A stretch of 6,432 bases of DNA from a virus. Taxonomy: Duplodnaviria; Heunggongvirae; Uroviricota; Caudoviricetes. Below are positions 1-5,786 of this stretch, piece after piece. Location: positions 1-6,432 of the IMG/VR virus record IMGVR_UViG_3300029241_000122, one strand, 5' to 3'. The translations under genes and the position numbers were made by a program. The notes beneath the pieces were generated by a model. The model worked only from the letters and a program-made list of their open reading frames with translations, had not been told where the DNA came from and ran no database searches. Each line of letters opens with the position of its first letter. Within the stretch, counting starts at the first letter, position 1.

Positions 1-221
1 TGATAGAAACAGAAGCCACTGGAGCACCTCAAAAACACCATCATACACTAAATCAGTAAGTTGGCAGCATCACCAACATAATCTGTCGCGAGTGCCGGAA
101 GAGTGAAGCTATGCAGCGTGTACTGGCTTTCTATCAGGGTAATTTTCAGGAGGCGGTACTGTGAGTGAAATTAGCTATCAGGCTTCAATTACCGCTGGCA
201 TTCGCATCAAAGGAGAGGAGC

Positions 222-578
222 ATGGAAATAAAACCAGAGGATGAGTTAAGCAATATCGTTTTATTTCCGGTAAAAGAGGATGACCCTCGTAATCAGGTTA
301 ATTTTCTTTATGAGCCATCGGAAAGACCATATTGTCATCACGCCTCTGTCCGGGTTGACGAAAAAGAGCGTCAGGTCCGCTGTAAAATCTGCGGTGCAGT
401 TGTGGAGCCATTTGACTGGATGCTCTCTGTGGCGAAAAGAGAAACCAGACTGGCAGATGATGTAAGGCTCTTGCGTCAGGAGGAGCGGGAAAGGCGAAAA
501 AATATAGAAAAGCTAATTCAGATTGAGCGTAACGCGAAAGCGCGGATACGCAGGGCGACAAAATCCAGAACTGAATAA
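222..578 (+). CDS. Hypothetical protein, 118 aa, with a Cys/His zinc-ribbon-like motif (PYCHH...x13...CKICG) and a basic coiled-coil-like C-terminus
   Basis: ATG at 222 is preceded by the SD AGGAG (211-215) at 6-nt spacing; stop TAA at 576-578. The ORF track uses an in-frame GTG at 165 (alternative start, 11 nt after AGGAGG 148-153). A 27-codon uORF (GTG 161 to TGA 242-244, SD spacing 7 nt) overlaps the ATG and could be a coupled leader. Function unknown. Confidence 0.6.
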   Translation: MEIKPEDELSNIVLFPVKEDDPRNQVNFLYEPSERPYCHHASVRVDEKERQVRCKICGAVVEPFDWMLSVAKRETRLADDVRLLRQEERERRKNIEKLIQIERNAKARIRRATKSRTE

Positions 579-642
579 TTAAATTTAGCTCTGTTAAAAA
601 TTTAATCCTTAACCGGAGGGATTTCTGCACCCTCAGAACATC

Positions 643-674
643 AGGAGGCCGCCCGAAAGGGCGGTAGTTAAATG
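643..674 (+). promoter_or_regulatory. Structured ribosome-binding site: SD AGGAGG (643-648), then a 6-bp hairpin with GAAA tetraloop (649-664), then ATG (672)
   Basis: CCGCCC GAAA GGGCGG is a perfect 6-bp GC stem with a GNRA loop lying between the SD and the start codon. Linear SD-to-ATG spacing is 23 nt; with the hairpin folded the effective spacing is about 7 nt. No U-tract follows, so it is not a terminator. Confidence 0.35.
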
Positions 675-854
675 CGAAAGTTTAAAATAATTATTGAAAC
701 GGGAATAGCCGGTGGAGATTTCGAGGATGAATTCGAAGTGGATGATGATGCGACGCCTGATGAAATACATGACGAAGCAAAAGATATTTTCTTTAACTAC
801 TGCAATTACTCATATCACGAAATAAAAGACGAAGAGGAAGAACAAAATGGCTGA
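672..854 (+). CDS. Small highly acidic protein, 60 aa (D/E-rich, ends KDEEEEQNG)
   Basis: ORF with ATG at 672 directly after the hairpin-bridged SD. Its stop TGA (852-854) overlaps the next ATG (847) in an ATGGCTGA arrangement. Strongly acidic composition. Function unknown. Confidence 0.6.
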   Translation: MRKFKIIIETGIAGGDFEDEFEVDDDATPDEIHDEAKDIFFNYCNYSYHEIKDEEEEQNG

Positions 855-1023
855 TTTTGGTTCAACTAAATACAACGTCAGTTTTGAAGAATGGCATGAA
901 CTGTTAATGGGCTATGCAGAGTTACGTGGTGGCAGTGCTGCTGATGCTGAAGCATGGCGTGATGATTATGAAGCAGGAAAAACTCCGGTCGAAGCATATT
1001 GTGATGAGTGGGGCGATGAATGA
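847..1023 (+). CDS. Small acidic protein, 58 aa (MADFGSTKYNVSFEEWHELLMGYAELRGG...CDEWGDE)
   Basis: Falls below the 60-aa ORF-track cutoff and was found by hand translation. SD GAGGAAG lies about 7 nt upstream of ATG 847. Its stop overlaps the next ATG as ATGA (1020-1023). Composition is protein-like. Confidence 0.55.
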   Translation: MADFGSTKYNVSFEEWHELLMGYAELRGGSAADAEAWRDDYEAGKTPVEAYCDEWGDE

Positions 1024-1336
1024 GCGAGGTTAATTATCAGGAAGGGCATGAAACGGCGGGGCAAGCAAAAACAGTGGCATGGCGATATCGCTACGTGAAA
1101 AAAAAGGCGTTACGGACTTTCAGGGGAAGTAGTGGTCTGGTGACTGGAAATATGTACCGAAAAAAGAGGATTGTAACGACAGGCCGAACTATGAAATTCA
1201 GGCCTTATTCACTGCCCCGCCAGTCCCGGTTACATCAGAAGAACTGGTTAAAGCTGTGCACTTTTATGAACAACTAAAACGCGAAAATCCACCAGCATCC
1301 GGAAACCTGATTACAGATTCCCAGATAAGGCAATGA
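1020..1336 (+). pseudogene. Frame-disrupted ORF: N-terminal part in frame 0 (MSEVNYQEGHETAGQAKTVAWRYRYVKKK...), C-terminal part in the -1 frame (...DWKYVPKKEDCNDRPNYEIQALFTAPPVPVTSEELVKAVHFYEQLKRENPPASGNLITDSQIRQ, stop 1334-1336)
   Basis: Frame 0 after the A8 run (1098-1105) turns R/K-rich and junk-like. The -1 frame from 1133 to 1336 reads like real protein but has no start codon. Two in-frame A_AAA_AAG heptamers lie at 1100-1106 and 1160-1166. Either a homopolymer frameshift pseudogene or a -1 frameshift site. Confidence 0.4.
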
Positions 1337-1432
1337 GCTACCTGGCGCAGAACGGGCTGATAAGTATGGGGAATGTTTTACGATGAATATTTAGACTAAA
1401 GAGTTTGTAACGCTATGTAAGTGATTTTTTCT

Positions 1433-1460
1433 GGTTTAGATATTTATATGTCCGGCCAAA
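1433..1460 (+). repeat. Left copy of an imperfect ~30-bp direct repeat (GGTTTAG-ATATTTA-TATGTCCGGCCAAA)
   Basis: Matches the right copy at 1704-1735 over the blocks GGTTTAG (7/7), ATATTTA (7/7) and TGT.CCGG.CAAA. The two copies bracket the AT-rich islet that carries the small membrane protein gene. Confidence 0.5.
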
Positions 1461-1506
1461 TTGAGGTGTGTTTAAATGTAATTGCACATTGATTGTAGGA
1501 GGAATA

Positions 1507-1686
1507 ATGAAAAACGCATTGCAGTTTTTGTTTGTTGCGTTCTGGTTGTTCGTATCATGTATGCCCATCATCTTCACAGCAAGGTATATGGAAAAAGTTG
1601 ATGTTTTGATATTAATATTTGGATATATAAATGCCCTTTTTTTAGGGGTGTTCATGGCGGTCATGTGCATTGAATACTGGCGGTAA
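1507..1686 (+). CDS. Small membrane protein, 59 aa, with two predicted hydrophobic helices (MKNALQFLFVAFWLFVSCMPIIF...VDVLILIFGYINALFLGVFMAVMCI)
   Basis: Strong SD AGGAGG (1497-1502) lies 4 nt before ATG 1507; stop TAA 1684-1686. The ORF-track start (GTG 1468) is in frame but lacks an SD. Sits in an AT-rich block between the direct repeats. Confidence 0.6.
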   Translation: MKNALQFLFVAFWLFVSCMPIIFTARYMEKVDVLILIFGYINALFLGVFMAVMCIEYWR

Positions 1687-1703
1687 ATACAGCGAACGCC
1701 ATT

Positions 1704-1735
1704 GGTTTAGTTGGATATTTACTGTGCCGGACAAA
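1704..1735 (+). repeat. Right copy of the imperfect direct repeat (GGTTTAG-TTGG-ATATTTA-CTGTGCCGGACAAA)
   Basis: See the left copy at 1433-1460. This copy carries an extra TTGG and lies just upstream of the predicted hok promoter. Confidence 0.5.
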
Positions 1736-1741
1736 AACGGT

Positions 1742-1769
1742 TTGCGGGGAAATCTTAGTTAAGTAGAAT
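1742..1769 (+). promoter_or_regulatory. Candidate sigma70 promoter of the hok mRNA (-35 TTGCGG 1742-1747, 16-bp spacer, -10 TAGAAT 1764-1769)
   Basis: The predicted transcript start near 1776 begins GGGTGCTTGAGGCTATCTG..., which resembles the 5' end of plasmid R1 hok mRNA (GGCGCTTGAGGCTTTCTG..., recalled from memory). The leader around 1900-1945 also resembles the R1 hok leader (GATAGCCTCTTAC...AAGGAGAAG). Confidence 0.45.
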
Positions 1770-1888
1770 GACTGCGGGTGCTTGAGGCTATCTGTCTCAG
1801 GCATGAACACCAAAAGGCAGATAGAGAAAAGCCCCAGTTAACATTACGCGTCCTGCAAGACGCTTAACATTAATCTGAGGCCATATCT

Positions 1889-1948
1889 ATGCGACACATA
1901 GAGATTAGCCTCTTACGGACCGAAAGGTCAAGGAGAAGCAGGCTATGA
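1889..1948 (+). CDS. mok-like 19-codon leader ORF translationally coupled to hok (stop TGA overlaps the hok ATG in CTATGAAG)
   Basis: ATG 1889 to TGA 1946-1948, 4-nt overlap with the hok start. Position matches mok in hok/sok loci, but the ORF is much shorter than R1 mok. Confidence 0.4.
   Translation: MRHIEISLLRTERSRRSRL
1902..1931 (-). promoter_or_regulatory. Candidate Sok-like antisense promoter (minus strand: -35 TTGACC, 18-bp spacer, -10 TAATCT)
   Basis: The reverse complement of 1902-1931 reads TTGACC-N18-TAATCT. Transcription would run leftward from about 1895, antisense to the mok-like start region, as the Sok RNA does in hok/sok systems. No clean terminator was found for it. Confidence 0.3.
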
Positions 1949-2109
1949 AGCAGCAAAAGGCGATGTTAATCGCCCTGATCGTCATCTGTTTAACCGTCAT
2001 AGTGANNNNNNNNNNNNNNNNNNNNNNNNNNNNNNNCCTCTGCGAGGTATGAATCCGAACCGGCCAGACGGAGGTCGCTGTCTTCACAGCTTACGAACCT
2101 GAGGAGTAA
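1945..2109 (+). pseudogene. hokD: Hok/Gef family type I toxin gene (HokD/RelF-like), interrupted by a 31-N run and carrying an in-frame TGA at 2050-2052
   Basis: N-terminus MKQQKAMLIALIVICLTVIV matches HokD as recalled. After the N-run the frame reads LCEV-TGA-IRTGQTEVAVFTAYEPEE-TAA, i.e. the conserved Hok C-terminus with TGA where Arg (CGA) is expected. SD AAGGAG lies about 10 nt upstream of the ATG. Confidence 0.65.
2006..2036. other. Run of 31 N (unresolved or masked bases) inside the hok ORF
   Basis: Seen directly in the sequence. If the length is exact, the hok frame is preserved across it. Confidence 0.95.
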
Positions 2110-2178
2110 GAGACCTGGCGGGGGAGAAATCCCTCGCCACCTCTGATGTGTCAGGCATCCTCAACGCACCCGCACTTA

Positions 2179-2204
2179 ACCCGCTTCGGCGGGTTTTGTT
2201 TTTT
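2179..2204 (+). terminator. Rho-independent terminator at the hok mRNA 3' end
   Basis: ACCCGC-TTCG-GCGGGT hairpin (6-bp stem, UUCG tetraloop) immediately followed by TTTGTTTTTT. A second GC-rich hairpin lies upstream at about 2113-2136. Confidence 0.8.
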
Positions 2205-2276
2205 CCTGGCATTCTGGTTTACAATTCGCACGTCAGCCTGAACACCTGACACCTGCTGCGCCAGCAGAGAAAACAG

Positions 2277-2549
2277 ATGGCGCACAAAACCAAATTTCAC
2301 AATTCTGATACCGACCTTGCCATCCGGCATGAGCGGCGTTCACACGCATTTAAAACCGACTGGTACCAACACCCACCATGTACTGAAGAACAGGCCGAAT
2401 GGCTGATTCATTCTTACCGCAGGCGCGGGTTCGAGGTTAAGAAAGCTCTCAGTCTCGACTATCGGCACTGGATAATCTCTGTCAGGCTGCCTTATTCCGA
2501 ACGCCCACCACGTCCGTCCCGCACTTTCCAGCAACGGATCTGGAGGTAA
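2277..2549 (+). CDS. Hypothetical protein, 90 aa; possibly the N-terminal part of a disrupted gene that continues in the 2551 frame
   Basis: ATG 2277 has a weak SD and an in-frame stop just upstream at 2247. The C-terminal residues (PPRPSRTFQQRIWR) look out-of-frame, and the next ORF frame is already open from 2476. Confidence 0.35.
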   Translation: MAHKTKFHNSDTDLAIRHERRSHAFKTDWYQHPPCTEEQAEWLIHSYRRRGFEVKKALSLDYRHWIISVRLPYSERPPRPSRTFQQRIWR

Positions 2550-2550
2550 C

Positions 2551-2958
2551 GTGCGGGTATTACTTAGACCTGTTCTGGTGCCTGAGCTTGGGCTGGTGGT
2601 CCTTAAGCCGGGCCGTGAATCCATACAGATATTTCATAATCCTCGAGTGCTGGTGGAGCCGGAACCGAAAAGCATGCGTAATCTGCCGTCCGGGGTTGTT
2701 CCTGCCGTTCGCCAGCCGCTAGTGGAAGACAAAACATTGCTGCCGTTTTTCAGTAACGCACGGGTGATTCGTGCTGCTGGTGGTGCTGGTGCATTGTCTG
2801 ACTGGCTGTTGCGCCATATTAAATCCTGCCAGTGGCCACACGGCGATTATCATCACAGCGAAACCGTCATTCACCGTTATGGTACCGGCGCAATGGTGTT
2901 GTGCTGGCACTGCGACAACCAGCTGCGTGACCAGACAGGCGACCGCAATCATTACTGA
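2551..2958 (+). CDS. Cys/His-rich, zinc-binding-like C-terminal domain protein (CQWPHGDYHH...CWHCDNQ); resembles DUF968-type lambdoid prophage proteins (YdfU/YdaW-like), probably a fragment
   Basis: Starts at GTG 2551; stop TGA 2956-2958 abuts the ATG of the Rz fragment. The family assignment is from memory and unverified. Confidence 0.45.
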   Translation: MRVLLRPVLVPELGLVVLKPGRESIQIFHNPRVLVEPEPKSMRNLPSGVVPAVRQPLVEDKTLLPFFSNARVIRAAGGAGALSDWLLRHIKSCQWPHGDYHHSETVIHRYGTGAMVLCWHCDNQLRDQTGDRNHY

Positions 2959-2959
2959 C

Positions 2960-3265
2960 ATGCAGATACGCCAGCGTGATGTTGCTGCACTCGATGCAAA
3001 ATACCTGAAGGAGTTAGCTGATGCGAAAGCTGAAAATGATGCTCTGCGTGATGATGTTGCCGCTGGTCGTCGTCGGTTGCGCATCAAAGCAGTCTGTCAG
3101 TCAGTGCGTGAAGCCACCGCCACCTCCAGCGTGGATAATGCAGTCTCCCCCAGACTGGCAGACACCGCTGAACGGGATTATTTCACCCTCCGGGAACGAC
3201 TGGTAATGATGCAGGCCCAACTTGAAGGTGCTCAGCAATACATAACCGAACAGTGTTTAAAGTAA
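2960..3265 (+). pseudogene. rzpR: N-terminally truncated Rz i-spanin (lysis gene remnant)
   Basis: Translation ...ITDMQIRQRDVAALDAKYLKELADAKAENDALRDDVAAGRRRLRIKAVCQSVREATA...DYFTLRERLVMMQAQLEGAQQYITEQCLK closely matches the C-terminal two-thirds of lambda Rz. The N-terminal TM segment is missing. The longer track ORF from 2771 is an out-of-frame read of the upstream gene. Confidence 0.75.
3021..3206 (+). CDS. rzoR: Rz1 o-spanin outer-membrane lipoprotein, embedded in the +1 frame of Rz
   Basis: MRKLKMMLCVMMLPLVVVGC with lipobox VVGC, proline-rich PPPPPAW segment, 61 aa, near-identical to lambda Rz1 as recalled. SD AAGGAG lies 7 nt upstream of ATG 3021. Confidence 0.8.
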   Translation: MRKLKMMLCVMMLPLVVVGCASKQSVSQCVKPPPPPAWIMQSPPDWQTPLNGIISPSGNDW

Positions 3266-3402
3266 AATCTTAACTACAATATGATTCATTTTGATGATTG
3301 TTTCATAAGGAACAGTGAAGTAAGATCTAAGAGGAGTTAAATTTTATACAGTATAATCATAATATTGCAGCAAGGTGGTTATAATTGAAAGAATATTTAG
3401 AT

Positions 3403-4860
3403 ATGAATACATCTCATGTAAGAGTTGTTACTCATATGTGTGGGTTCCTGGTTTGGCTCTATAGTCTTTCAATGTTGCCACCAATGGTTGTAGCATTGTT
3501 TTATAAAGAAAAAAGCCTGTTCGTTTTCTTTATAACTTTCGTTATATTTTTTTGCATTGGTGGCGGAGCGTGGTATACAACTAAGAAATCTGGCATTCAA
3601 TTACGTACCCGTGATGGGTTTATTATAATTGTAATGTTTTGGATTTTGTTTTCTGTTATTAGTGCATTCCCTTTATGGATTGACTCAGAACTTAATTTAA
3701 CGTTCATTGATGCTCTGTTTGAAGGGGTTTCTGGAATAACAACAACAGGAGCAACTGTAATTGATGATGTTAGTTCATTACCTCGGGCATATTTGTACTA
3801 TCGGTCACAGTTAAATTTTATAGGTGGTTTAGGAGTTATTGTTCTGGCGGTTGCAGTATTGCCATTATTGGGTATTGGTGGTGCAAAGCTTTATCAGTCA
3901 GAAATGCCGGGGCCATTTAAGGATGACAAACTCACTCCCCGCCTGGCCGATACGTCACGGACACTGTGGATAACTTATTCTTTATTAGGTATTGCTTGTA
4001 TTGTCTGTTATAGACTTGCAGGAATGCCTTTGTTTGATGCTATTTGTCACGGGATTTCCACAGTTTCGCTTGGTGGTTTCTCAACTCATAGCGAGAGTAT
4101 CGGATATTTTAATAACTATTTGGTTGAGCTGGTGGCTGGTGCTTTTTCCCTGCTATCGGCTTTCAACTTTACTCTTTGGTATATTGTTATTAGCAGAAAA
4201 ACGATAAAACCTTTAATCAGAGATATTGAACTTCGTTTCTTTCTGTTAATAGCCTTAGTGGTGATCATTGTTACCTCTTTCCAGGTCTGGCATATAGGTA
4301 TGTATGACTTGCATGGAAGTTTTATTCATTCGTTTTTTCTTGCCAGCTCCATGCTCACTGATAATGGTTTAGCTACGCAAGATTATGCAAACTGGCCCAC
4401 GCACACGATAGTGTTTTTGCTGTTGTCAAGTTTCTTTGGGGGATGTATAGGTTCAACTTGTGGTGGAATTAAGTCACTTCGATTTCTTATACTTTTCAAA
4501 CAAAGCAAACACGAGATAAATCAGCTTTCTCATCCCAGAGCGTTGTTGAGTGTAAATGTAGGAGGGAAGATAGTTACAGATCGTGTAATGAGGTCTGTAT
4601 GGAGTTTCTTTTTTCTTTATACTCTCTTCACGGTGTTTTTTATACTGGTGTTAAATGGTATGGGATATGATTTTCTTACATCATTTGCAACAGTGGCTGC
4701 ATGTATTAATAATATGGGATTAGGTTTTGGGGCTACTGCATCGTCATTCGGAGTGCTTAATGACATTGCAAAATATTTAATGTGCATAGCTATGATTCTT
4801 GGTCGCCTTGAAATTTATCCTGTTATTATATTGTTTTCAGTTTTTTTTTGGCGCTCCTAA
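3403..4860 (+). CDS. trkG: TrkG, Trk-system K+ uptake membrane protein (TrkH/TrkG family), 485 aa
   Basis: Translation from ATG 3403 (MNTSHVRVVTHMCGFLVWLY...) matches E. coli TrkG as recalled and aligns with TrkH motifs (GATxxxxxSLP, EMPGP, GGxGSTxGG). Markedly AT-rich relative to flanks. An upstream TTG at 3385 preceded by AAGGTGG is an alternative start. Confidence 0.9.
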   Translation: MNTSHVRVVTHMCGFLVWLYSLSMLPPMVVALFYKEKSLFVFFITFVIFFCIGGGAWYTTKKSGIQLRTRDGFIIIVMFWILFSVISAFPLWIDSELNLTFIDALFEGVSGITTTGATVIDDVSSLPRAYLYYRSQLNFIGGLGVIVLAVAVLPLLGIGGAKLYQSEMPGPFKDDKLTPRLADTSRTLWITYSLLGIACIVCYRLAGMPLFDAICHGISTVSLGGFSTHSESIGYFNNYLVELVAGAFSLLSAFNFTLWYIVISRKTIKPLIRDIELRFFLLIALVVIIVTSFQVWHIGMYDLHGSFIHSFFLASSMLTDNGLATQDYANWPTHTIVFLLLSSFFGGCIGSTCGGIKSLRFLILFKQSKHEINQLSHPRALLSVNVGGKIVTDRVMRSVWSFFFLYTLFTVFFILVLNGMGYDFLTSFATVAACINNMGLGFGATASSFGVLNDIAKYLMCIAMILGRLEIYPVIILFSVFFWRS

Positions 4861-4997: not shown

Positions 4998-5786
4998 ATG
5001 AGCGAGAAATTAAAGATAGTCTATCGCCCATTACAAGAATTGTCACCGTATGCGCACAACGCCAGGACGCACAGTACTGAGCAGGTGGCACAACTGGTAG
5101 AAAGTATTAAGCAATTCGGCTGGACTAATCCGGTGCTGATTGACGAAAAGGGCGAAATTATTGCGGGTCACGGTCGTGTTATGGCGGCTGAAATGCTCAA
5201 AATGGATTCTGTTCCGGTCATTGTTCTGTCTGGCCTGACGGATGAGCAGAAAAAGGCGTACCGCTTGGCAGATAATCGCCTACCGATGAATGCTGGCTGG
5301 GATGAAGATCTGTTGCGGATGGAGCTGTCGGTCCTAATCAATGCTGATTTTGATGTCTCCCTGACAGGCTTCGGCCCGACAGAAATTGATGAACTGTTGA
5401 CGGATGTTTTGCCCGGTATAGGAAATAAGGAGGAGCCGTATACGACGAAAATTGATACGCCTGTTTATGAGCCGTCGGGCGGTAAACCGGATATCAGTGA
5501 ACTGTACGACGATACGAAAACTCAGGAGCTGATCAGCCGGATACGTTCGGCGTCCCTTGATCCTGATATTGAGAAATTCCTCCTGTGTGCGGCAGAACGT
5601 CACACGGTGTTTAATTTCAGCAGAATTGCGGACTATTACGCTCATGCCCCCGCTGAAATTCAGTGCCTTTTCGAGGAGTCGGCGCTGGTGATCATTGATT
5701 ATCAGCAGGCTATTGAAAATGGATTTGTCCGAATGACGCAGCGCATGGTGGAGATCATGCATGGCGGGGAGGAGGAATATGCGTGA
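4998..5786 (+). CDS. ParB-like N-terminal domain (ParB/Srx fold, ParB-like nuclease type) protein, 262 aa, with an uncharacterised C-terminal half
   Basis: N-terminal about 95 aa (KIVYRPLQELSPYAHNARTHS...IIAGHGRVMAA...VIVLSGLTDEQKKAYRLADNRL) fits the ParB-like nuclease domain pattern. May correspond to an intact version of the Rac ynaK region (unverified). Its stop overlaps the next gene start. Confidence 0.75.
   Translation: MSEKLKIVYRPLQELSPYAHNARTHSTEQVAQLVESIKQFGWTNPVLIDEKGEIIAGHGRVMAAEMLKMDSVPVIVLSGLTDEQKKAYRLADNRLPMNAGWDEDLLRMELSVLINADFDVSLTGFGPTEIDELLTDVLPGIGNKEEPYTTKIDTPVYEPSGGKPDISELYDDTKTQELISRIRSASLDPDIEKFLLCAAERHTVFNFSRIADYYAHAPAEIQCLFEESALVIIDYQQAIENGFVRMTQRMVEIMHGGEEEYA

What the first reader, a model, noticed from the sequence alone, without database searches (positions are those of the whole stretch)
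672..1023. Tandem, translationally coupled small acidic proteins
Two consecutive ORFs of 60 and 58 aa are extremely rich in Asp and Glu and are linked by overlapping stop/start codons. Small acidic proteins in phage early regions are often DNA mimics or anti-restriction and anti-defence factors such as Ocr or ArdA. Their position next to a zinc-ribbon protein in the nin-like region is compatible with an anti-defence or host-takeover cassette. This is a hypothesis only.
Basis: inference. Interest (0 to 1): 0.45.

Follow-up and report, generated by a model that had tools for sequence, protein, structure and literature searches.

The report
Two small acidic prophage proteins
Two adjacent, real and widely conserved genes in a decaying Rac-like E. 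coli prophage encode small, folded, strongly acidic proteins of unknown function; they are plausible but unproven host-takeover or anti-defence factors and show no relationship to Ocr, ArdA or any characterised protein.

Summary
ORF1 (672-854, 60 aa, 33% Asp+Glu, net charge -15) and ORF2 (847-1023, 58 aa, 26% Asp+Glu, net -11) are the two most acidic ORFs in the window. They overlap by 8 nt (ATGGCTGA). Substitution patterns show purifying selection, and each is found in about a third of complete E. coli genomes.

ORF1 belongs to Pfam DUF7167 / phrog_519's neighbour family phrog_1997. ORF2 has no Pfam family and matches only phrog_519. AlphaFold models are confident: ORF1 is a beta-hairpin plus helix, and ORF2 is a three-helix bundle. 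Fold and sequence searches found no characterised relative, so neither is Ocr, ArdA, a Nin protein or a known defence or anti-defence protein.

Negative charge is conserved across both families. The pairing is confined to E. coli lambdoid prophages. Elsewhere each gene occurs alone, in early or accessory regions of many phage types: beside Ral/cIII/Kil/RecT, next to exonucleases, after P2 gene A, and after the Ackermannviridae capsid gene.

My best reading, at about 0.4 confidence, is two independent accessory proteins that each block a basic, nucleic-acid-binding surface on a host protein. The DNA-mimic or anti-defence idea is neither shown nor refuted. This prophage copy is defective: it has an IS1 insertion, a 5.6-kb deletion and a frameshifted neighbour. 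Interest is modest.

The parts
643..648 (+). AGGAGG Shine-Dalgarno-like hexamer, 23 nt upstream of the ORF1 start
   Evidence: Read from the sequence. It is conserved in most related loci.
649..664 (+). Hairpin CCGCCC-GAAA-GGGCGG between the Shine-Dalgarno hexamer and the ORF1 ATG. No T-run follows it, so it is not terminator-like.
   Evidence: RNA fold gives 6 G-C pairs with a GAAA loop; the 76-nt context has z = -2.2. The terminator scan does not call it. It travels with ORF1 into other upstream contexts, and one compensatory variant exists, CCACCC/GGGTGG.
672..854 (+). ORF1: 60-aa acidic protein of the Pfam DUF7167 / phrog_1997 family. Predicted beta-hairpin (residues 2-8 and 17-23) plus helix (29-43), then an aromatic segment and an acidic tail.
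   Evidence: (55.1 bits against a cut-off of 24.4).
834..838 (+). GAGGA Shine-Dalgarno sequence for ORF2, lying inside ORF1's Glu-rich tail codons
   Evidence: Read from the sequence.
847..1023 (+). ORF2: 58-aa acidic protein with no Pfam family. It matches positions 76-137 of phrog_519. Predicted three-helix bundle (13-27, 34-42, 47-55). This copy carries a rare D22G change.
222..578 (+). Upstream neighbour: 118-aa protein with a CHH...CxxC motif and a basic C-terminal helix (phrog_1621). This is context, not a conserved partner.
   Evidence: The upstream neighbour differs in other E. coli prophages.
1020..1336 (+). Downstream neighbour: frameshifted pseudogene of a 119-aa hypothetical protein, overlapping the ORF2 stop by ATGA. 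This is context.
   Evidence: RefSeq annotates it as 'frameshifted; internal stop'. An intact 119-aa version exists in phage vB_EcoM-606R7.

Best explanation
ORF1 and ORF2 are two unrelated, independently mobile phage accessory genes. In E. coli lambdoid (Rac-like and Stx-like) prophages they happen to sit side by side in the delayed-early rightward operon, downstream of the replication genes.

Each encodes a small, stably folded domain with a hydrophobic, aromatic core and a conserved acidic surface. ORF1 is a DUF7167 beta-hairpin plus helix that probably works as a dimer. ORF2 is a three-helix bundle.

The most likely mode of action for each is a stoichiometric protein-binding inhibitor. In this model the acidic face occupies a basic, nucleic-acid-binding surface of a host (or competing-element) protein early in lytic growth. 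That is a nucleic-acid-mimic type of host-takeover or anti-defence factor.

Shown here: the genes are real and under purifying selection; the folds are confidently predicted; the acidity is conserved; the genes are separable; and their relatives lie in early or accessory regions. Inferred only: that they bind a host protein, which protein that is, and that the acidic face is the interface. They are not members of the Ocr or ArdA families, and they are not an obligate pair.
For: Coding and selection: synonymous changes far outnumber non-synonymous ones; present in about 35% of complete E. coli genomes.

Folded rather than disordered: ORF2 model pLDDT 88.4, pTM 0.71; ORF1 model pLDDT 86.2.

Conserved acidity:
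- Every one of the 71 ORF2 relatives and 58 DUF7167 members has a negative net charge.
- ORF2 columns 33, 35, 39, 40, 42 and 53, and ORF1 columns 22, 25, 31 and 38, are about 90-99% Asp/Glu.
- On helical wheels, acidic residues fall opposite the aromatic core positions.

Autonomy:
- ORF1 relatives occur without ORF2 in Klebsiella Guernseyvirinae, Enterococcus Herelleviridae, Klebsiella phage ST512-KPC3phi13.3 and P22-like phages.
- ORF2 relatives occur without ORF1 in about 185 Ackermannviridae and other phages, and in Enterobacter, Proteus, Aquitalea, Salmonella and Morganella prophages.

Neighbourhoods typical of host-directed early genes:
- A DUF7167 member lies between Ral/Y8K6 and cIII-Kil-RecT, with a Lar-like gene nearby.
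- DUF7167 members lie next to exonuclease or RecT modules.
- ORF2 relatives lie among small ORFs with Dam/MT-A70 methylases, in the Ead/Ea22-xis region, and directly after P2 gene A at the edge of the variable locus.

Operon structure: no promoter-like or terminator-like site was called on the + strand between 165 and 2178, which fits one operon.

Dimer hint: tandem-duplicated DUF7167 proteins (P0224, P0232) suggest a dimeric unit.
Against: There is no direct functional evidence of any kind and no literature on either family.

Most invariant residues are core aromatics (F13, W16, W37, Y41 and W55 in ORF2). No specific interface has been identified.

Model coordinates could not be inspected, so DNA-like charge spacing is untested.

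The repeated position next to replication or recombination genes equally fits a phage-internal role.

This particular copy sits in a defective prophage and may never be expressed in a lytic programme.
Confidence: 0.4

Rival explanations
1. The proteins are phage-internal accessory factors of replication or recombination. In this model the acidic proteins bind the phage's own DNA-handling proteins (exonuclease, RecT/Erf, SSB, or an initiator such as gpA or O/P-like proteins) to regulate or chaperone them. This would resemble the way the acidic tails of SSB or T7 gp2.5 mediate protein contacts.
For: For ORF1 (DUF7167):
- The gene overlaps the start of a 454-aa PD-(D/E)XK exonuclease gene in Klebsiella Guernseyvirinae.
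- It overlaps the end of an exonuclease gene in Enterococcus phages.
- It lies a few genes from RecT/Gp157.

For ORF2:
- Homologues overlap the end of replication gene A in two P2-like lineages.
- They follow SSB in Proteus prophages.
- They follow the replication genes in Rac-like and lambda-like prophages.

ORF1 also ends in an acidic tail.
Against: No single neighbouring family is conserved across contexts. ORF2 also sits after the major capsid gene in Ackermannviridae and between the lysis and head genes of a Mu-like prophage. The exonucleases next to DUF7167 belong to different families and lie on different sides of it. In E. coli prophages neither ORF is next to an exonuclease or initiator gene.
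Confidence: 0.25
2. ORF1 and ORF2 form an obligate two-component cassette: a heteromeric complex, or two steps of one function, made in fixed ratio by translational coupling. This is what the first reader implied.
For: An 8-nt stop/start overlap is present. In E. coli prophage loci the two are adjacent in 160 of 161 cases, and their genome counts are almost equal (1871 against 1904). The pair stays together while both flanks are exchanged.
Against: Each gene occurs without the other even among fairly close relatives:
- ORF1 at 70% identity is followed by an unrelated Cys-rich gene.
- ORF2 at 78-86% identity sits behind Ead/Ea22 or DUF1187.
- The wider phage distributions barely overlap: among phage records, 35 hold ORF1 relatives and 198 hold ORF2 relatives, from different taxa.
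- One natural allele deletes ORF1 and keeps ORF2 (L009).

The two profiles are unrelated (hhalign probability 0.3%). Both proteins are strongly negative (-15 and -11), which disfavours a mutual complex. ORF2 is tightly packed against whatever gene precedes it in other phages, so an overlap is generic operon packing.
Confidence: 0.07
3. In this particular genome the two ORFs are silent relics of a decaying cryptic prophage with no current function, whatever their families do in active phages.
For: The window carries an IS1 end (1-74) inserted in the upstream DUF977 gene. A 5.6-kb deletion removes the end of DUF968, RusA, the Q antiterminator and most lysis genes, with the junction at about 2936/2937 (one search compared). 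The downstream ORF3 is frameshifted. ORF2 here carries D22G, a rare change at a position that is D in nearly all E. coli alleles.
Against: Both reading frames, their start codons and their Shine-Dalgarno sequences are intact and 98-100% identical to those of inducible phages. The same frameshifted ORF3 and intact pair are found in many genomes. Cryptic-prophage genes can still be expressed.
Confidence: 0.2
4. They are divergent members of the Ocr (T7 gp0.3) or ArdA anti-restriction DNA-mimic families.
For: The only support is composition: small size, 26-33% Asp+Glu and pI about 4.
Confidence: 0.01

Closest known systems
Pfam DUF7167 (PF23768) / PHROG phrog_1997
   Same: ORF1 matches the full-length model: 55.1 bits against a gathering cut-off of 24.4, and phrog_1997 at E 9e-31. 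RefSeq names it 'DUF7167 family protein'. An exhaustive search finds 99 cluster representatives at E <= 0.001, mostly stand-alone proteins of 50-60 aa.
   Different: There is no difference in sequence terms; ORF1 is a plain member. The family has no known function and no paper mentions it.
PHROG phrog_519 (unknown function)
   Same: ORF2 matches at E 3e-23. Relatives of 50-70 aa occur in about 198 deposited phage genomes and many prophages.
   Different: ORF2 covers only positions 76-137 of the 143-position profile. The longer members seen here (P0144 and P0145, 127 aa) look like read-through fusions of an upstream DUF1187 gene with an intact ORF2, because the internal 'MADFGSTK' start is retained. 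There is no Pfam family.
Small acidic phage DNA-mimic inhibitors as a functional class (e.g. T7 Ocr, T7 gp5.9, phi29 p56, ArdA, several anti-CRISPRs)
   Same: The shared features are small size, high Asp+Glu content, pI about 4, early or accessory gene position, and acidity conserved across the family. T7 gene 5.9 lies just upstream of the exonuclease gene 6 (from general knowledge), which resembles the position of DUF7167 upstream of the exonuclease in Guernseyvirinae.
   Different: No homology or fold similarity to any of them was found. No target is known, DNA-like charge spacing was not assessed, and binding was not tested. The resemblance rests on composition and context only.
Lambda-type nin-region and exo-xis-region small ORFs (NinB-NinZ, Ea8.5, Orf60a/61/63/73)
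   Same: The genomic niche is the same: small, mosaic, mostly uncharacterised genes between the replication genes and Q, or between the recombination genes and xis.
   Different: Neither ORF hits a Pfam Nin, Ea or Orf family at E <= 1.

Membership tests
Pfam DUF7167 (PF23768) | Score at or above the Pfam gathering threshold over the full-length model | tested here: met
   ORF1 scores 55.1 bits against a cut-off of 24.4, covering model positions 1-60 of 60. The precomputed Pfam assignment on close relatives agrees.
PHROG phrog_519 | Significant HMM match | tested here: met
   ORF2 matches at E 3.2e-23, but only to profile positions 76-137 of 143.
Ocr (T7 gp0.3) | Sequence match to the Ocr family | tested here: not met
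   No Pfam hit other than DUF7167 and a sub-threshold AnkX_ins hit for ORF1, and none for ORF2, at E <= 1. PDB sequence search at E <= 10 gave only unrelated chance hits.
Ocr (T7 gp0.3) | Elongated all-helical dimer fold of about 116 aa (general knowledge) | tested here: not met
ArdA | Sequence match, and a three-domain fold of about 165 aa (general knowledge) | tested here: not met
DNA-mimic proteins (functional class) | Small size, high Asp+Glu content and low pI | tested here: met
   ORF1 has 33% D+E and pI 4.05. ORF2 has 26% D+E and pI 4.08. The acidity is conserved family-wide. This feature is necessary but not sufficient.
DNA-mimic proteins (functional class) | Surface carboxylates arranged with the spacing of B-DNA phosphates | not testable with these tools
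   Model coordinates are not exposed to scripts. Only helical-wheel placement of acidic residues could be examined.
DNA-mimic proteins (functional class) | Competitive binding to the DNA-binding site of a target protein | not testable with these tools
   This needs co-folding or an experiment.
Known anti-phage defence proteins (PADLOC-DB) | HMM match to a defence-system component | tested here: not met
   ORF1 and ORF2 gave no hits at E <= 1.
Lambda Nin proteins (NinB/E/F/G/H/X etc.) | Pfam match to a Nin family | tested here: not met
   No such hit at E <= 1.
Obligate two-gene cassette (ORF1 + ORF2) | Co-occurrence and adjacency conserved across the families' whole range | tested here: not met
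   The two are adjacent in 160 of 161 E. coli-type loci but separate in all more distant contexts.

The most novel reading that the evidence does not exclude
One or both proteins are founding members of new, structurally distinct families of nucleic-acid-mimic inhibitors. DUF7167 would be a dimeric beta-hairpin-plus-helix mimic, and the ORF2 family a three-helix acidic mimic. In this reading they neutralise a conserved host DNA-targeting defence or repair enzyme, such as restriction-modification, RecBCD or another nuclease. That would explain why they have spread independently through lambdoid, P2-like, Mu-like, P22-like, Ackermannviridae, Guernseyvirinae and even Enterococcus phages.
Probability: 0.2. 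Interest if true: 0.6.

Novelty: new member of a known kind. Interest (0 to 1): 0.3.

Why it matters
About a third of complete E. coli genomes carry these two genes. Their families reach into therapeutic-phage groups, including Klebsiella and Salmonella Ackermannviridae and Enterococcus Herelleviridae, yet nothing is known about them. If either protein is an inhibitor of a host defence or repair enzyme, it would add a new fold to the anti-defence repertoire and could explain host-range differences. The ORF2 family is not even in Pfam, so defining it would be a small annotation gain. As it stands, the finding is a well-characterised pair of conserved hypothetical genes and a reasonable candidate for an anti-defence screen. 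It is not a discovery.

Tried and rejected
1. Family libraries. Pfam, NCBIfam and PADLOC scans gave only DUF7167 for ORF1 and nothing for ORF2. Scanning all 71 ORF2 relatives individually against Pfam also gave nothing.
2. PDB sequence search at E <= 10 gave chance hits only.
3. Fold searches of confident AlphaFold models.
   - Foldseek against BFVD returned only uncharacterised members of the ORF2 family.
4. Literature searches for DUF7167, the RefSeq accessions, LygF, peptide strings, and the supplements of one accessory-gene screen found nothing.
5. The idea that phrog_519 or the DUF1187-ORF2 proteins are a true domain fusion was rejected. The 127-aa proteins retain the internal ORF2 start and look like read-through across an intergenic stretch.
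6. The JL22 (P1-like) 'gp101' hit next to a methyltransferase is only a 3' remnant of ORF2, and it is annotated in another frame.
7. Homology between ORF1 and ORF2 was rejected (hhalign probability 0.3%).
8. A profile-based scan of viral contigs with distant DUF7167 members failed because no stretch was conserved enough.
9. The hairpin upstream of ORF1 was considered as a terminator and rejected. It has no T-run, the terminator scan does not call it, and it sits between the Shine-Dalgarno hexamer and the start codon.

Full report
WHAT THE WINDOW IS. The window is a piece of a Rac-like lambdoid prophage of E. coli. Bases 100-1400 are 100% identical to several complete genomes and match 2744 of 5426 complete E. 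coli genomes at some level.

In an intact relative (NZ_CP135671), the gene order is as follows: recT-recE-racC-kilR-sieB; repressor and cro-like genes; ydaT; the ydaU/ydaV replication genes; DUF1627; DUF977; a 118-aa hypothetical; DUF7167; a 58-aa hypothetical; a frameshifted hypothetical; hok/sok; DUF968; RusA; the Q antiterminator; lysis genes; and trkG. The finding therefore lies in a nin-like position, between the replication genes and Q.

The copy in the window is defective:
- Bases 1-74 are the end of an IS1 element inserted in the DUF977 gene.
- A 5.6-kb deletion joins the DUF968 gene to the Rz gene at about 2936/2937, removing RusA, Q and most lysis genes.
- The ORF after the pair is frameshifted.

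THE OBSERVATION. ORF1 (672-854) has 60 aa, 33% Asp+Glu and net charge -15. ORF2 (847-1023) has 58 aa, 26% Asp+Glu and net charge -11. They are the two most acidic ORFs in the window.

They overlap by 8 nt (ATGGCTGA). ORF2 also has its own GAGGA 8 nt upstream of its ATG, so translational coupling is possible but not necessary. ORF2 overlaps the next ORF by ATGA.

Both are genuine genes:
- RefSeq annotates them.
- Across 47 alleles from about 160 related loci, the diverged alleles differ mainly at synonymous sites, for example 13:2 in ORF1 and 6-8:1 in ORF2.
- ORF1 is present in 1871, and ORF2 in 1904, of 5426 complete E. coli genomes.

No promoter-like or terminator-like site was called on the + strand between 165 and the terminator at 2178-2195, which fits one rightward operon.

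WHAT THE PROTEINS ARE. ORF1 is a full-length member of Pfam DUF7167 (55.1 bits against a cut-off of 24.4) and of phrog_1997. ORF2 has no Pfam or NCBIfam family and matches only phrog_519. The two profiles are unrelated to each other.

An exhaustive HMMER search found 99 cluster representatives for DUF7167. Most are stand-alone proteins of 50-60 aa, and a few are tandem duplications (P0224, P0232), which hints at a dimeric unit. A profile search found 147 ORF2 relatives of about 50-70 aa in Enterobacterales and in Aquitalea.

The AlphaFold models built on these alignments are confident:
- ORF2 is a three-helix bundle (helices 13-27, 34-42 and 47-55) with pLDDT 88 and pTM 0.71.
- ORF1 is a beta-hairpin (2-8, 17-23) plus a helix (29-43), followed by a conserved aromatic segment and an acidic tail, with pLDDT 86.

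Neither protein is disordered. In ORF2 the near-invariant residues are aromatic or hydrophobic: F13, W16, L20, A24, W37, Y41 and W55. These form the core face of the helices, and acidic residues populate the opposite faces.

The negative charge is a conserved family trait. Net charge has a median of -9 (range -15 to -3) in the ORF2 family and a median of -11 (range -18 to -4) in DUF7167. Several columns are 87-99% Asp/Glu.

COMPARISON WITH KNOWN PROTEINS. Nothing characterised was found:
- PDB sequence searches gave only chance hits.
- Foldseek against BFVD returned only uncharacterised members of the ORF2 family.
- PADLOC gave nothing.
- There are no Pfam hits to Ocr, ArdA or any Nin family.
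- No paper mentions DUF7167, the accessions or the peptide strings, and they are absent from the supplements of one accessory-gene screen.

Membership of the Ocr and ArdA families is therefore rejected.

IS IT A CASSETTE? Within E. coli lambdoid prophages the two genes are almost always adjacent (160 of 161 loci). They stay together while both flanks change. The upstream neighbour can be the 118-aa Cys/His protein, a 70-aa hypothetical or a SAM methyltransferase. The downstream neighbour can be ORF3 or an Ead/Ea22-like gene.

Beyond that lineage they separate:
- DUF7167 at 70% identity in Klebsiella phage ST512-KPC3phi13.3 is followed by an unrelated Cys-rich gene.
- ORF2 at 78-86% identity follows Ead/Ea22 in Enterobacter prophages, or DUF1187 in some E. 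coli contigs.
- One allele has deleted ORF1 and kept ORF2.
- Among deposited phages, 35 records carry ORF1 relatives (E. coli lambdoid phages, Klebsiella, Enterococcus Herelleviridae). By contrast, 198 records carry ORF2 relatives, mostly Salmonella, Klebsiella and Escherichia Ackermannviridae.

Both proteins are strongly negative, which also argues against a mutual complex (inference). I conclude that the pair is a lineage-specific juxtaposition of two independent modules.

CONTEXT AS A CLUE TO FUNCTION. DUF7167 genes are found in these positions:
- Overlapping the start of a 454-aa PD-(D/E)XK exonuclease gene in Guernseyvirinae.
- Overlapping the end of an exonuclease gene in Enterococcus phages.
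- A few genes from GamL/RecT/Gp157.
- In P22/lambda-like early-left operons, between Ral/Y8K6 and cIII-Kil-RecT, with a Lar-like gene further on.

ORF2 relatives are found in these positions:
- Directly after the major capsid gene in Ackermannviridae.
- In early regions of Lastavirus and Jilinvirus.
- After SSB, among small ORFs and Dam/MT-A70 methylases, in Proteus prophages.
- In the Ead/Ea22-xis region or after O/P in Enterobacter.
- In a Mu-like Aquitalea prophage, next to a gene with a weak Acb2/Tad1-hairpin hit.
- Overlapping the end of replication gene A in two P2-like lineages, at the edge of the variable A-to-portal locus. One of these loci carries an nSTAND1/AAA_16 gene.

There is no conserved partner. 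The common theme is tightly packed early or accessory operons, the niche of host-takeover and anti-defence genes. This niche also borders the replication and recombination genes.

MOST LIKELY MECHANISM. I commit to the following, at a confidence of about 0.4. Each protein is an autonomous, early-expressed, stoichiometric inhibitor. Its conserved acidic face occupies a basic, nucleic-acid-binding surface of a host or competitor protein. This is a nucleic-acid-mimic type of host-takeover or anti-defence factor.
- Shown: real genes under selection, confident compact folds, family-wide acidity, separability of the two genes, and accessory or early neighbourhoods.
- Inferred: binding to a host protein, the identity of the target, and the acidic face as the interface.

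The rivals are:
- A phage-internal replication or recombination accessory role (0.25).
- An obligate two-gene cassette (0.07).
- Silent relics in this defective prophage (0.2; this concerns this copy only and is compatible with the others).
- Ocr or ArdA membership (0.01).

NOVELTY AND INTEREST. Both genes are already catalogued as hypothetical proteins: DUF7167 / phrog_1997, and phrog_519. The new points are the family-wide conservation of charge, the predicted folds, the lack of any structural relative, the independence of the two genes, and the breadth of their contexts. None of this is surprising to a phage biologist, and no open question is resolved. They are reasonable candidates for an anti-defence screen, and the ORF2 family merits a Pfam entry. 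Interest is 0.3. The most novel reading not excluded is that these are new-fold DNA-mimic inhibitors, with probability about 0.2 and interest 0.6 if true.

Noticed in passing
window 1-74 (and 75-164): The window starts with the terminal 74 nt of an IS1 element inserted into the 3' part of the DUF977 gene. The same stretch matches IS1 copies in 5090 of 5426 genomes, and a few genomes show the same IS1/DUF977 junction. The insertion may be polar on the downstream operon that contains the two acidic ORFs.
   Followed up: partly
window 643-672: The AGGAGG hexamer is 23 nt from the ORF1 ATG, and a 6-bp G-C hairpin with a GAAA loop (649-664) lies between them. Folding would bring the Shine-Dalgarno sequence to about 7 nt from the start, an arrangement reminiscent of split Shine-Dalgarno sites such as T4 gene 38 (general knowledge). 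The hairpin moves with ORF1 into other upstream contexts and shows one compensatory variant, CCACCC/GGGTGG, in 4 loci.
   Followed up: partly
window ~2936/2937: This is a deletion junction. Window 75-2937 aligns to L001 8976-11829 and window 2936-4823 aligns to L001 17414-19301. About 5.6 kb is therefore missing: the 3' part of DUF968, RusA, the Q antiterminator, the holin and lysozyme genes, and the start of Rz. The prophage cannot complete a lytic cycle.
   Followed up: yes
window 1020-1336: The ORF after ORF2, which overlaps it by ATGA, is a frameshifted pseudogene of a 119-aa hypothetical protein. The intact version exists in phage vB_EcoM-606R7. The same frameshifted form is present in many genomes.
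   Followed up: partly
window 1776-2052 and 2178-2195: A hok/sok type I toxin-antitoxin locus is present. The sok RNA matches Rfam RF01794 at 1776-1947 (106.7 bits), and a Hok/Gef ORF lies at about 1945-2052. A run of 31 N (2006-2036) masks part of hok. The only terminator-like site on the + strand follows at 2178-2195.
   Followed up: partly
window 847-1023, codon 22: ORF2 in this window has Gly at position 22, where nearly all other E. coli alleles have Asp (LLMDYAEL). Only 1 of about 160 loci shares the window's allele. The change removes one residue of the acidic stripe on helix 1.
   Followed up: partly
L196 4368-5585 (Salmonella P2-like prophage); L175 4159-4359 (Aquitalea Mu-like prophage): Two neighbours of ORF2 homologues are noteworthy. 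One is a 405-aa nSTAND1/AAA_16 protein in the P2 A-to-portal variable locus, which is defence-like. The other is a 66-aa protein with a weak Acb2_Tad1_hairpin Pfam hit directly after the ORF2 homologue.
   Followed up: no
P0224, P0232 (metagenomic proteins): Tandem-duplicated DUF7167 proteins of 105 and 129 aa exist, which suggests the single-domain proteins act as dimers.
   Followed up: no
window 3385-4860, 4998-5786: trkG (a potassium transporter, the classic Rac prophage cargo gene) is followed by a full-length 262-aa ParB-like (ynaK-type) ORF and a 206-aa ORF.
   Followed up: no
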